NCBI GenBank assembly: GCA_018884025.1
Contig: JAHLFB010000209.1
Span: forward strand, 1 to 24,838
Direction of reading: 5' to 3'
Source: Candidatus Phocaeicola faecipullorum
GTDB taxonomy: Bacteria; Bacteroidota; Bacteroidia; Bacteroidales; Bacteroidaceae
Length of the DNA: 24,838 nucleotides
Shown here: positions 2,455-4,062 of the stretch, piece by piece
Layout of the letters: every line of letters starts with the position of its first letter
How positions within the stretch are numbered: position 1 is the stretch's first letter
Notes under the pieces: generated by a model
The model's database searches: none
What the model was told of the DNA's origin: nothing
The model's input: the letters and a program-made list of their open reading frames with translations, nothing else
Program-made: the position numbers and the translations under genes

Positions 2455-4062
2455 ATGAGAAATTATTTTTCTATTATATCAATATATATATGCTCAATAT
2501 GTAATATCATTGCCGCAAATAACAATATAAAAGAAATCATAAGAAAATCAGAAGACTGTCTATACACAAGTCCAAGGCAAACCGTATTTCTCACATCAAA
2601 GGGACTGACCGAAACAACTGATAAAAATGACATATTCATGCTTCTAATCATAAAAGCCAAAGCAGAAAGACTTTTGGGTAACTTTGACGAGAGCCTGAAT
2701 TCTCTATATAAAATAGATATGGAATCGTTCAACAATGAAACAAGCATTAAAGGCGAAATATATAACCTAATGGCACTAAGCTATTGCAATCTGTCTGATT
2801 ATCAGAAAGCTATTGAACTGAATGATAAAGCTATATCAATATTTAAAGTAAATAACGATTCTCTCATGCTGGCATCGGCATATAATAACAAAGGGATTAT
2901 CCACAATCATATGTCTGAAGACACACAGTCTGAAAAATTTCTATTGGAAGCCCTGAGAATCAACAGAGCATTGAAAAACATTAAGGGAATATCCGCAAAT
3001 CTAAACAACTTATGTTTATACCACGGAAATCTATCAAAACAGAAAGAATATATACAAGAGGCCATAATAATAAACAAAAACCTAGATGCCAAATGGGCAC
3101 TGGCAGAAAACTACAATAACCTTGGAAGATTGTATATTTACGAAAAAGACTACGAAAGCGCAAATACCGCATTGAAGAAAGCATATACTATAGCCAATGA
3201 AATCGGTGCAAAAGGCATAGTCTGCGACAACTATGAATACCTCTCCAGATTAAACGCACAATCAGGCAACTATAAGAAAGCCTTTGAATATCAAACAAAA
3301 CTTAACTCTCTAAAACAGGAACTCCAAAGCGAAAACAATCTCAGAAAAATAGAATTAAACATGGCCGAGGAGAAATTAAACGAAGTAATAAGGGAAAACG
3401 AAATAAAAAAACAAGAATACGAAATACAAAGACTGGAAAGAAACATATACGGGATTATTATTATATTCATCCTGATAACAATCATTACCATTTTGTTGAC
3501 TCAACGTTCTAAAAGGAAAAAGAAACTGGCCTTAATTAAAGCACAATATAGACTGGAACAGTCTCAGCATGAAATAGCGCGGCAGAAAATGGAATTGCAG
3601 AATATGGAATTACAGAATGCCCAACTTACATTAGAAAACAACAAACAGCAAATGACCAATATGGCCGCTTTCCTGAAAAGCAGAAACGAATTGCTGGAAA
3701 AAATAAAAGAACTTATAAAGCAAGGATATAAACTGAACGGAAGTGAGACAACTATACATTTAAAGAAAATAAATGCAATAATTACTCAGTACCAAAACAA
3801 TGACAAGACTAATAGTGTCACATTAAAAAGCACGGAAGACATAAATAATGAATTCATTGAAAGACTGGAAAAGAGACATCCAAACTTAACCCAAGGTGAA
3901 AAACACCTGGCATGTCTGCTAAGAACAGACATGTCCGCAAAAGAAATTGCAATTATTACAGGTACTACACCAAAAACCATAAACATGAATAGATACCGAC
4001 TAAGAAAGGCACTAAACTTAAGCAATGAAACAGACCTTTCGGAATACATAAAGCAAATCTAG
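2455..4062 (+). CDS. membrane-spanning TPR-repeat protein with C-terminal LuxR/GerE-type HTH (putative transcriptional regulator)
   Basis: Residues 5-21 are hydrophobic. About 300 aa of TPR-like repeats follow (e.g. YNNLGRLYIYEKDYESANTALKKAYTIA). A TM helix spans aa 331-350 (nt 3445-3504) and is followed by RSKRKKK. A coiled-coil region leads to a GerE-type HTH, LTQGEKHLACLLRTDMSAKEIAIITGTTPKTINMNRYRLRKAL (from nt 3886). Confidence 0.8.
   Translation: MRNYFSIISIYICSICNIIAANNNIKEIIRKSEDCLYTSPRQTVFLTSKGLTETTDKNDIFMLLIIKAKAERLLGNFDESLNSLYKIDMESFNNETSIKGEIYNLMALSYCNLSDYQKAIELNDKAISIFKVNNDSLMLASAYNNKGIIHNHMSEDTQSEKFLLEALRINRALKNIKGISANLNNLCLYHGNLSKQKEYIQEAIIINKNLDAKWALAENYNNLGRLYIYEKDYESANTALKKAYTIANEIGAKGIVCDNYEYLSRLNAQSGNYKKAFEYQTKLNSLKQELQSENNLRKIELNMAEEKLNEVIRENEIKKQEYEIQRLERNIYGIIIIFILITIITILLTQRSKRKKKLALIKAQYRLEQSQHEIARQKMELQNMELQNAQLTLENNKQQMTNMAAFLKSRNELLEKIKELIKQGYKLNGSETTIHLKKINAIITQYQNNDKTNSVTLKSTEDINNEFIERLEKRHPNLTQGEKHLACLLRTDMSAKEIAIITGTTPKTINMNRYRLRKALNLSNETDLSEYIKQI

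What the first reader, a model, noticed from the sequence alone, without database searches (positions are those of the whole stretch)
2455..4062. A membrane-spanning TPR-TM-LuxR protein is the only regulator candidate for a SusC/SusD locus
The 535-aa ORF has this layout:
- an N-terminal hydrophobic signal/anchor (aa 5-21);
- about 300 aa of TPR-like repeats;
- one strongly hydrophobic helix (aa 331-350) followed by RSKRKKK, which by the positive-inside rule marks the cytoplasmic side;
- a coiled coil;
- a C-terminal GerE/LuxR HTH.

The HTH must be cytoplasmic, so the TPR domain is predicted to be periplasmic. That makes this a one-component, trans-membrane sensor-regulator.

The gene lies directly upstream of the PUL operon on the same strand. 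The window contains none of the usual PUL regulators: no hybrid two-component system, SusR-like protein, ECF sigma/anti-sigma pair, or GntR/AraC/LacI regulator. The SusC-like protein also lacks the STN extension used for anti-sigma signalling.

To my knowledge this architecture has not been characterised as a PUL sensor.
Basis: partly seen in the sequence, partly recalled or inferred. Interest (0 to 1): 0.7.

Follow-up and report, generated by a model that had tools for sequence, protein, structure and literature searches.

The report
SusR-type membrane regulator with TPR sensor
The gene encodes a membrane-spanning sensor and transcription factor of the same design as SusR, the classic Bacteroides starch-locus regulator, but with a TPR sensor domain. 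It very probably switches on the neighbouring sugar-uptake operon through three conserved DNA repeats, so it is a useful new variant rather than a new kind of system.

Summary
The described ORF is real. Window 2455-4062 (+) encodes 535 aa with this layout: N-terminal hydrophobic segment, about seven TPRs, one strong TM helix followed by RSKRKKK, a long helix, and a C-terminal LuxR/GerE-type HTH. The HTH is clear only at family-profile level.

The regulator-to-SusC-SusD-LysO-GH2(-GH63) gene order holds in orthologues down to 37% identity. The regulator-susC spacer carries three direct repeats, (T)TGTAGAT, at 4087, 4143 and 4175 (spacings 56 and 32 bp). They are conserved in all 40 distinct orthologous spacers, and the proximal repeat lies 49-51 bp upstream of a Bacteroides -7 box. 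Such repeats are essentially absent from 68 of 70 other SusC loci; the two exceptions are orthologous PULs.

The novelty claim fails. This is the architecture of SusR-like regulators and of BguR. A BT3091-type SusR-like protein has the same layout. Profile-profile comparison with that family gives a collinear match (97% probability) and a homologous HTH (E 1e-6), but no DUF6377 match and no pairwise similarity.

The protein is also not the only regulator candidate. A FopS sRNA gene lies at 2211-2277 (-), with a 10-nt complement in the susC leader.

Verdict: new variant of a known kind; no experiment exists.

The parts
2412..2419 (+). Candidate -7 promoter box (TATATTTG) of the regulator gene
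   Evidence: Read from the sequence. It matches the Bacteroides TAnnTTTG consensus (established knowledge). A terminator-like hairpin at 2075-2101 closes the upstream gene. Inferred, not tested.
2455..4062 (+). Regulator ORF, 535 aa: hydrophobic N-terminus, TPR domain, TM, long helix, LuxR-type HTH
2461..2529 (+). aa 3-25: N-terminal hydrophobic signal or anchor
   Evidence: Hydropathy. Conserved in 186 of 196 family members. Cleaved versus uncleaved could not be decided.
2572..3324 (+). aa 40-290: TPR solenoid, predicted periplasmic sensor
   Evidence: Pfam TPR_12 and others. AF2 pLDDT >90. Foldseek matches LGN, KLC and Rap TPR domains at E 1e-8 to 1e-5. The FimS model matches aa 54-357.
3445..3504 (+). 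aa 331-350: transmembrane helix inside the continuous helix 293-425, followed by RSKRKKK
3883..4038 (+). aa 477-528: LuxR/FixJ (GerE)-type helix-turn-helix
   Evidence: GerE at 17.6 bits; UhpA model at 1.3e-4; family profile against PDB; hhalign against the SusR2-like C-terminus at E 1.1e-6
4087..4093 (+). Operator repeat A (TGTAGAT), 138 bp upstream of the -7 box
4143..4149 (+). Operator repeat B (TGTAGAT), 56 bp after A
4175..4181 (+). Operator repeat C (TGTAGAT), 32 bp after B and 50 bp upstream of the -7 box
   Evidence: The 32-bp B-C spacing also holds in L166, L167 and L172.
4225..4232 (+). Candidate -7 promoter box of susC (TAATTTTG)
   Evidence: It lies at the same 49-51 bp from repeat C in the four other lineages examined that carry a TAnnTTTG box (L087, L085/L038, L102, L001).
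4291..4300 (+). TAACCTTAAA in the susC leader (-20 to -11), complementary to the FopS seed
   Evidence: this 10-mer occurs only here and inside the FopS gene. AACCTTAA is present in 8 of 12 orthologous leaders.
4311..20431 (+). Predicted target operon: SusC, SusD, GH63-like, GH2, split LysO, GH2, GH63-like
2211..2277 (-). FopS-family sRNA gene (post-transcriptional SusC repressor family)
   Evidence: Rfam RF04319 at 78.2 bits (gathering score 56), E 3.5e-10, full-length. Its terminator hairpin is at 2221-2238. It is absent from 8 orthologous loci.

Best explanation
The ORF encodes an inner-membrane, one-component sensor and transcription factor of the SusR type.

Proposed mechanism:
1. The N-terminal hydrophobic segment exports or anchors the protein, so the seven-repeat TPR domain faces the periplasm.
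2. One long helix (aa 293-425) crosses the membrane at aa 331-350 and continues as a cytoplasmic coiled coil, probably the dimer interface.
3. A helical linker carries a LuxR-type HTH on the cytoplasmic side.
4. A product of the locus binds the TPR domain. The likely ligand is a beta-Gal/alpha-Glc-containing oligosaccharide or glycopeptide imported by SusCD.
5. This changes the HTH arrangement so that the membrane-tethered protein occupies three direct repeats, (T)TGTAGAT, at 4087, 4143 and 4175. These lie roughly at -146, -90 and -58 relative to the predicted start site.
6. Binding activates the promoter that drives susC-susD-GH63-GH2-lysO-GH2-GH63.

Shown here: architecture, family conservation, synteny, and operator conservation and specificity.
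Inferred: periplasmic location of the TPR domain, dimerisation, that this protein binds those repeats, activation rather than repression, and the identity of the ligand.
For: - **Architecture:**
- **Topology signals conserved in 196 family members:**
- **Precedent for a periplasmic TPR sensor:** the TPR+TM module matches the FimS model, whose eight-TPR domain lies between two TM helices in the periplasm (PMC11053733).
- **Synteny regulator-SusC-SusD-LysO-GH2(-GH63):**
  - Phocaeicola salanitronis, 50% identity.
  - 70 of 80 metagenome loci have SusC directly downstream; several of the other 10 contigs simply end after the regulator.
  - Representatives at 46%, 42% and 37% identity.
  - A 35% relative sits before an M43-like gene, GH2 and GH63 with no SusCD, and its spacer still carries TGTAG repeats.
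- **Operator:**
  - TGTAGAT is repeated in all 40 distinct orthologous spacers, although the flanks diverge and spacer length runs from 222 to 664 bp.
  - TGTAGA is the top repeated 6-mer in an unbiased count, present at least twice in 10 of 12 lineages.
  - Repeat C lies 49-51 bp from TAnnTTTG in five lineages.
  - Specificity: all 5 genome loci with this regulator have at least 2 copies; of 70 other SusC loci, 66 have none. The only 2 with at least 2 copies are orthologous PULs.
- **Relation to SusR-like regulators:**
  - The B. xylanisolvens protein directly upstream of the dextran-PUL SusC is 549 aa with the same layout. The PUL carries SusD, SusE/F, GH66 and GH31. Its spacer matches the published BACOVA_02787 alignment with repeats 77 bp apart.
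  - hhalign of the two families: probability 97.4%, E 1.2e-11, 414 collinear columns.
  - HTH domains alone: 90.9%, E 1.1e-6, against 0.3-0.4% for mismatched-domain controls.
- **Published operator pattern:** predicted SusR-like operators are also direct repeats with long spacers of 67 or 77 bp (PMC3878776). 56, 67, 77 and 88 bp all approximate 10.5n+3.5.
- **Precedent for activation:** SusR and BguR are activators (PMC3878776; 10.64898/2026.01.10.698779).
Against: - There is no experiment on this family.
- Pairwise BLASTP against the SusR2-like protein is not significant. There is no DUF6377 match. The periplasmic domains align only weakly and out of register (55.8%), so the sensors may be unrelated.
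- One 37%-identical full-length relative lies between cytochrome c biogenesis genes and DAHP synthase, with no glycan genes. The wider family is therefore not PUL-specific.
- Two orthologous PULs (L051, L055) keep the operator but have no regulator within about 10 kb upstream.
- The repeat core read on the other strand (ATCTACA) equals the published SusR4 motif, but in the opposite orientation relative to the gene. This is unexplained.
- The TPR fold resembles peptide-binding TPRs, so a free sugar ligand is not assured.
- No dedicated TM or signal-peptide predictor was available.
Confidence: 0.72

Rival explanations
1. Same protein and same target, but the signal is not a free sugar. The TPR groove binds a peptide, a glycopeptide or a protein partner, for example a periplasmic part of the SusCD machinery. 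The regulator would then report transporter occupancy or a glycopeptide rather than an oligosaccharide.
For: - The best structural matches are peptide-binding TPR superhelices: LGN/Pins, kinesin light chain and Rap.
- Nearly invariant Asn/Tyr/Trp/Glu/Asp residues line the repeats (N144, N184/185, N219-222, W214, Y220, D258).
- The locus context includes a split LysO-family transporter conserved inside the PUL, an adjacent M13 peptidase, and an M43-like protein replacing SusCD in one relative.
Against: - SusR is reported to bind maltose (PMC3878776).
- From memory, MalT's TPR-like domain senses maltotriose.
- Asn/Trp/Tyr/Asp/Glu residues are equally typical of sugar sites.
- No docking or binding test was possible.
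Confidence: 0.2
2. The protein is a membrane-tethered precursor. On signal, regulated proteolysis releases the cytoplasmic coiled-coil and HTH part, which then acts as a soluble factor.
For: - Two orthologous PULs keep the operator without an adjacent regulator gene, so action at a distance occurs.
- The cytoplasmic part has a constant length, median 186 aa, and could be a self-contained module.
Against: - No protease gene is conserved in the locus.
- SusR-like proteins are described as acting while they are integral membrane proteins (PMC6874557), and no proteolysis has been reported for them.
- The AF2 model shows an uninterrupted helix, which suits piston or scissor-type transmission.
Confidence: 0.07
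3. The neighbour relation is not regulatory. The operon is controlled by a canonical regulator outside the window, or only by global and post-transcriptional control (FopS/RbpB), and the TPR-LuxR protein controls other genes.
For: - One 37% relative is not next to glycan genes.
- A FopS sRNA gene is in the window, and the susC leader carries a FopS-complementary site.
- The window ends 4.4 kb beyond the last PUL gene.
Against: - Synteny is retained down to 37% identity, and to 35% with the GH genes alone.
- A repeat set specific to these loci sits at a fixed distance from the promoter.
- The repeat core drifts in step with the regulator, from TGTAGA to TGTAGG in the most distant lineages.
- No HTCS, ECF or AraC gene lies within 10 kb in P. 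salanitronis.
- FopS is absent from 8 orthologous loci.
Confidence: 0.08

Closest known systems
SusR and SusR-like regulators of Bacteroides (BT3705 starch, BT3091 dextran; Pfam DUF6377)
   Same: - Length about 540 aa, with the same order of parts: N-terminal signal, roughly 300-aa helical periplasmic domain, single TM at about aa 330-350 followed by Lys/Arg, coiled coil, C-terminal HTH.
- Gene directly upstream of and co-directional with susC.
- Operator made of direct repeats with long spacers, the proximal one about 46-50 bp from the -7 box.
- Remote homology: 97.4% overall and E 1e-6 for the HTH domain.
   Different: - No DUF6377 match and no pairwise similarity.
- The sensor here is a canonical TPR_12-type array, whereas the SusR2-like sensor gives no significant TPR hit.
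- Three repeats spaced 56 and 32 bp, rather than two spaced 67 or 77 bp.
- The repeat orientation is opposite to the published SusR4 motif.
BguR, the beta-glucan utilization regulator of marine Bacteroidota (bioRxiv 10.64898/2026.01.10.698779)
   Same: [quoted passage not shown] It sits next to a PUL and is an activator shown by deletion.
   Different: BguR is 940 aa, and its sensor is a tandem beta-propeller plus Y_Y_Y domain like that of HTCS. Here the sensor is a TPR solenoid.
FimS sensor histidine kinase of Porphyromonas gingivalis
   Same: The TM1-TPR array-TM2 sensor module. The NCBIfam FimS model matches aa 54-357 at E 3.4e-16. The FimS TPR domain is periplasmic (PMC11053733).
   Different: The FimS output is a histidine kinase acting through FimR. 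Here the output is a directly fused HTH, with no HisKA or HATPase. The score of 58.6 bits is far below the model cut-off of 600.
MalT / LAL-type TPR-LuxR regulators (cytoplasmic STAND ATPases)
   Same: A TPR-like sensor is combined with a C-terminal LuxR HTH. TPR_MalT hits occur in 15 of 39 family members. From memory, MalT is a precedent for a TPR-like domain sensing an oligosaccharide.
   Different: Those proteins are soluble, about 900 aa, and need an NTPase domain. This protein has no ATPase, and its sensor is separated from the HTH by a membrane helix.
Hybrid two-component systems (HTCS) of Bacteroides PULs
   Same: An inner-membrane protein that both senses periplasmic glycan fragments and binds DNA, encoded next to susC/susD.
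   Different: HTCS have a beta-propeller/Y_Y_Y sensor, HisKA, HATPase and receiver domains, and an AraC HTH. None of these is present here.

Membership tests
SusR-like regulators (DUF6377 family) | Match to Pfam DUF6377 (TM plus cytoplasmic region), as in the BT3091-type protein (2.3e-96) | tested here: not met
   No DUF6377 hit for the window protein at E<=0.01. Only 1 of 39 family members hits weakly, at 7e-4.
SusR-like regulators (DUF6377 family) | Detectable homology to a bona fide SusR-like protein | tested here: inconclusive
   BLASTP is not significant. hhalign of the families gives 97.4%, E 1.2e-11 and a collinear match. The HTH alone gives 90.9%, E 1.1e-6, while the sensor alone gives 55.8% and is out of register. 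Canonical SusR (BT3705) itself could not be retrieved.
SusR-like regulators (functional class) | Membrane protein with periplasmic sensor and cytoplasmic C-terminal HTH (PMC3878776) | tested here: met
   Hydropathy, the positive-inside rule and family conservation, plus the AF2 model. This is a prediction only.
SusR-like regulators (functional class) | Gene adjacent to the regulated susC/susD operon, conserved across species | tested here: met
SusR-like regulators (functional class) | Direct-repeat operator with long spacer upstream of the regulated gene | tested here: met
   Three conserved TGTAGAT repeats, spaced 56 and 32 bp. That this protein binds them was not tested.
SusR-like regulators (functional class) | Binds a breakdown product of the substrate and activates transcription | not testable with these tools
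   Needs genetics and biochemistry.
LuxR/FixJ (GerE) HTH superfamily | Four-helix C-terminal HTH recognisable by GerE models or solved structures | tested here: met
   The window protein alone is below Pfam's cut-off (17.6 against 23.5 bits). The family profile hits 3clo (2.6e-6), EsrB, EL222, StyR, VraR, DosR, GerE, FixJ and NarL. 16 of 39 members hit GerE, best 3.1e-6.
TPR proteins | Tandem 34-residue helix pairs forming a solenoid | tested here: met
   TPR_12 at 61.2 bits against a cut-off of 30.1. AF2 shows 14 paired helices over aa 40-290 at pLDDT >90. Foldseek matches LGN and KLC TPR domains at E 1e-8.
BguR-type one-component regulators | Tandem beta-propeller plus Y_Y_Y periplasmic sensor | tested here: not met
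   No such Pfam domains. The AF2 model is all-helical.
Hybrid two-component systems | HisKA, HATPase_c, receiver and AraC HTH domains | tested here: not met
   None found.
FimS-type sensor kinases | Histidine kinase core C-terminal to the TPR sensor; NCBIfam cut-off 600 bits | tested here: not met
   58.6 bits, covering only the TPR+TM part. No kinase domains.

The most novel reading that the evidence does not exclude
The TPR domain may sense a peptide-linked signal rather than a free glycan. One candidate is a Glc-alpha-1,2-Gal-beta-hydroxylysine-type glycopeptide released from collagen-like substrates. This would fit the YgjK-like GH63 and LacZ-like GH2 pairs, the conserved split LysO-family transporter and the nearby peptidases. 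The other candidate is a periplasmic segment of the SusCD machinery. Either way, this family would be a third, mechanistically distinct sensor class of SusR-type one-component regulators, one that couples a PUL to peptide or protein recognition without a sigma/anti-sigma pair.
Probability: 0.15. Interest if true: 0.7.

Novelty: new variant of a known kind. Interest (0 to 1): 0.42.

Why it matters
SusR-type regulators are the least understood class of PUL regulators. Their mechanism is described as undefined (PMC6874557), and only five are counted in B. thetaiotaomicron (PMC3878776). This work shows that a large family shares the SusR/BguR design and a related HTH: 125 representative clusters at E<1e-30, and all 196 signature-bearing members among the 270 proteins retrieved keep the full architecture. 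One clade of it is locked to a specific PUL with a clear three-repeat operator. That widens the class, gives PUL annotation pipelines a regulator type they would currently label only 'TPR protein', and supplies a directly testable promoter, operator and regulator set. It does not overturn any concept.

Tried and rejected
1. **B. thetaiotaomicron susR locus.** I tried to fetch it with DNA strings copied from the PDF supplement of PMC3878776. There were no matches in metagenome contigs or genome contigs; the PDF text is evidently corrupted. I then used the PDB SusC homologue 8aa4 as an anchor, which gave the B. xylanisolvens dextran PUL and its SusR2-type regulator. Canonical SusR (BT3705) was never obtained.
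2. **afdb50 fold search.** Meant to look for SusR by name, but the library was not available.
4. **Protein search with the SusR2-like protein**. It returned only 95-100% identical 'DUF6377 domain-containing protein' entries, so no SusR name and no diversity for modelling.
5. **L078 as a 'bridge' protein** that hits both families. The match is only in the TM and coiled-coil region, so I do not count it as evidence.
6. **Whole-sRNA RNAduplex of FopS against the susC leader.** It was not discriminating: 37 of 300 shuffles were as good, and other genes scored better. I replaced it with an exact-complement count.
7. **TGTAG cluster in L092.** It turned out to be a GC-rich palindromic element unrelated to the operator.
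8. **Invertible promoter linked to the resolvase gene.** No convincing inverted repeats flank either promoter region.
9. **Literature searches** for a TPR-LuxR PUL regulator. Nothing was found.
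Full report
**1. Observation**

The ORF at 2455-4062 (+) is real and encodes 535 aa.

- Pfam finds strong TPR matches: TPR_12 at 61 bits against a cut-off of 30.1, plus TPR_1, TPR_2 and TPR_8. 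It finds only a sub-threshold GerE match (17.6 against 23.5 bits, aa 477-528).
- Kyte-Doolittle hydropathy shows two hydrophobic segments, aa 3-25 and aa 329-352. The second is very strong (2.9) and is followed by RSKRKKK, giving net +7 after it and 0 before it.
- The AlphaFold2 model, built on a 39-sequence alignment, has mean pLDDT 84.9. It shows 14 paired helices over aa 40-290 at pLDDT >90, one unbroken helix from 293 to 425 that contains the TM segment, and a helical C-terminal domain with the HTH at 480-519.
- The LuxR assignment holds at family level. A profile of 23 C-termini hits solved LuxR/FixJ-type HTH domains: 3clo at 2.6e-6, then EsrB, EL222, StyR, VraR, DosR, GerE, FixJ and NarL. 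16 of 39 family members hit GerE.
- SusC (4311-7409) has CarbopepD_reg_2 and Plug but no STN.
- None of the other large ORFs is an HTCS, ECF/anti-sigma, GntR, AraC or LacI protein.

**2. Topology**

No dedicated predictor was available, so I used family conservation. Of the 270 retrieved proteins, 196 are 480-700 aa long and carry the C-terminal R[YH]RLR signature. Among them:

- all 196 have exactly one central TM;
- 188 are more positively charged after the TM than before it;
- the cytoplasmic tail has a constant length (median 186 aa);
- 186 have an N-terminal hydrophobic stretch, and the 10 exceptions look like truncated gene calls.

The TPR+TM part (aa 54-357) matches the NCBIfam model of Porphyromonas FimS (3.4e-16). 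The eight-TPR sensor of FimS lies between two TM helices in the periplasm (PMC11053733). A periplasmic TPR domain and a cytoplasmic HTH is the only self-consistent arrangement.

**3. Link to the PUL: synteny**

- The 50%-identical orthologue in Phocaeicola salanitronis has the same order: regulator, SusC, SusD, LysO, GH2, GH63-like.
- In 80 metagenome loci at 47-53% identity, 70 have SusC directly downstream, and most continue with SusD-LysO-GH2. Of the other 10, several contigs simply end after the regulator. L084 lacks the PUL downstream, in L092 the regulator follows a different SusC/D pair, and L103 has other genes in its place.
- Representatives at 46%, 42% and 37% identity keep the order.
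- A 35% relative precedes an M43-like gene, GH2 and GH63 with no SusCD.
- A different 37% relative sits between cytochrome c biogenesis genes and DAHP synthase.

The wider family is therefore a general sensor-regulator family, and one clade of it is dedicated to this glycan locus.

**4. Link to the PUL: a conserved operator**

- The only three TGTAGAT heptamers in the 24.8-kb window all lie on the + strand in the 248-bp regulator-susC spacer, at 4087, 4143 and 4175.
- All 40 distinct orthologous spacers (222-664 bp, with diverged flanks) carry the same repeats, spaced 56-57 or 88-89 bp. Inspection shows a three-site layout, A-56-B-32-C, in which either B or C is degenerate in some lineages.
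- In an unbiased count, TGTAGA is the most widely repeated 6-mer, present at least twice in 10 of 12 lineages.
- The B-C spacing of 32 bp persists in the 46%, 42% and 33% relatives. The core drifts to TGTAGG in the most distant ones.
- Repeat C starts 49-51 bp upstream of a TAnnTTTG box in five lineages. In the window the box is TAATTTTG at 4225-4232.
- Specificity control: among 75 SusC-homologue loci from genomes, all 5 with this regulator have at least 2 copies of TGTAGA upstream of susC. Of the other 70, 66 have none, 2 have one and 2 have two. Those last two are orthologous PULs that keep operator and leader but have no regulator gene within about 10 kb upstream.

The positions (about -58, -90 and -146) fit an activator.

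**5. Comparison with what is known**

SusR is described as a membrane protein with a periplasmic sensor and a cytoplasmic DNA-binding domain with a C-terminal HTH. SusR-like paralogues sit next to susC/D, and their predicted operators are direct repeats 67 or 77 bp apart (PMC3878776). BguR (2026 preprint) has signal peptide, beta-propeller/Y_Y_Y sensor, TM, linker and GerE. Its authors name SusR as the only comparable architecture.

To test the relation directly I needed a SusR-like sequence.

- The window's SusC is closest in the PDB to 8aa4_A (5e-166). A scan with that sequence retrieved the B. xylanisolvens locus L004 at 95% identity.
- L004 carries SusD, SusE/F, GH66 and GH31. Its spacer matches the published BACOVA_02787/BT3090 alignment, including the two repeats 77 bp apart.
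- The gene directly upstream (L004:8097-9746, 549 aa) is therefore the BT3091 (SusR2) orthologue.
- It has the same layout as the window protein: signal, roughly 300-aa helical domain, TM at 331-351 followed by KQMKK, coiled coil, C-terminal HTH. It matches Pfam DUF6377 at 2.3e-96.

Results of the comparison:

- Pairwise BLASTP with the window protein is not significant.
- Profile-profile comparison of the two families gives 97.4% probability, E 1.2e-11, over 414 collinear columns.
- Domain by domain, the HTH regions are related (90.9%, E 1.1e-6; mismatched-domain controls give 0.3-0.4%). The periplasmic domains align only weakly and out of register (55.8%).

The window protein is thus an architectural twin and remote relative of SusR-like regulators, with a different, canonical TPR sensor. 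It is not a DUF6377 member. One further regularity is that 56, 67, 77 and 88 bp all approximate 10.5n+3.5, so the repeat pairs have the same helical phase in both families. The published SusR4 motif core (ATCTACA) is the reverse complement of TGTAGAT but is oriented the other way. I cannot explain this.

**6. Sensor fold and possible ligand**

Foldseek against the PDB matches peptide-binding TPR superhelices: LGN/Pins, kinesin light chain and Rap, at E 1e-8 to 1e-5. The nearly invariant residues are Asn/Tyr/Trp/Glu/Asp-rich, which suits either a sugar or a peptide backbone.

The enzymes of the locus are YgjK-like GH63 (3e-87) and LacZ-like GH2. A split LysO-family transporter is conserved inside the PUL. 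From memory, and not verified here, YgjK accommodates Glc-alpha-1,2-Gal, the disaccharide of collagen hydroxylysine glycans. That suggests a glycopeptide substrate and ligand. This remains a hypothesis; the one literature search on it found nothing relevant.

**7. Not the only regulator candidate**

- Rfam finds a full-length FopS sRNA gene at 2211-2277 (-), at 78.2 bits against a gathering score of 56.
- FopS sRNAs repress translation of SusC-like transporters by pairing near the start codon, and RbpB antagonises them (PMC11697453).
- The seed of this copy has a 10-nt perfect complement, TAACCTTAAA, at -20 to -11 of susC. That 10-mer occurs nowhere else in the window except in the FopS gene itself.
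- AACCTTAA is present in 8 of 12 orthologous leaders.
- The FopS gene is not syntenic: it is absent from 8 orthologous loci. It is therefore a trans-acting layer, not part of the system.

**8. Verdict**

The claim of an uncharacterised architecture is wrong, and so is the claim that it is the sole regulator candidate.

This is a new variant of a known kind, a SusR/BguR-type regulator with a TPR sensor. I found no published characterisation in the searchable library. All functional statements are predictions.

Noticed in passing
window 2211-2277 (-): A full-length FopS-family sRNA gene (Rfam RF04319, 78.2 bits) lies 180 bp upstream of the regulator gene, on the opposite strand, with its terminator hairpin at 2221-2238. 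The family represses translation of SusC-like transporters. The gene is not present in 8 orthologous loci.
   Followed up: partly
window 4291-4300 (+): TAACCTTAAA in the susC leader (-20 to -11) is perfectly complementary to the FopS seed. It occurs nowhere else in the window except in the FopS gene. AACCTTAA recurs in 8 of 12 orthologous susC leaders and in published SusR2/SusR3-regulated leaders, so it is probably a general FopS target site.
   Followed up: partly
window 14442-15322 (+): A split LysO (lysine exporter family) pair of 93 + 200 aa is embedded in the PUL and conserved in every orthologous locus. This is an unusual inner-membrane transporter for a PUL. Together with the YgjK-like GH63 and LacZ-like GH2 pairs, it suggests an amino-acid-linked Glc-Gal glycan as substrate. 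This is a hypothesis only.
   Followed up: no
window 9082-11133 and 18521-20431; 11146-14397 and 15334-18495 (+): The locus carries duplicated enzyme pairs: two YgjK-like GH63 glucosidases and two LacZ-like GH2 beta-galactosidases. Orthologous loci such as P. salanitronis have only one of each within the stretch seen, so the window carries an internal duplication or an expanded version.
   Followed up: no
window 556-1185 (+), with inverted repeat 432-447/496-511: A serine recombinase of the resolvase/invertase type (Resolvase + HTH_7, 209 aa) lies 1.3 kb upstream of the regulator, with a perfect 16-nt inverted repeat just before it. GC is lower (about 0.29-0.31) over 1-3000 than in the PUL (0.35-0.44). 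This may be a mobile or invertible element bordering the locus.
   Followed up: partly
L051 and L055, about 9750-9965: Two orthologous PULs keep the three-repeat operator, the -7 box and the FopS-complementary leader, but have no regulator gene within about 10 kb upstream. The regulator would be encoded elsewhere or lost.
   Followed up: partly
PMC3878776 Additional file 2, BT2159 upstream region: The published SusR4 (BT2160) motif core ATCTACA is the exact reverse complement of this operator's TGTAGAT. The proximal SusR4 site is followed 8 nt later by TGTAGAC, so that site may really be an inverted repeat.
   Followed up: no
window 20771-22807 (-): An M13 (neprilysin-like) metallopeptidase is encoded convergently just after the PUL. 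One distant relative of the regulator precedes an M43-like protein instead of SusCD (L171:7809-9227).
   Followed up: no
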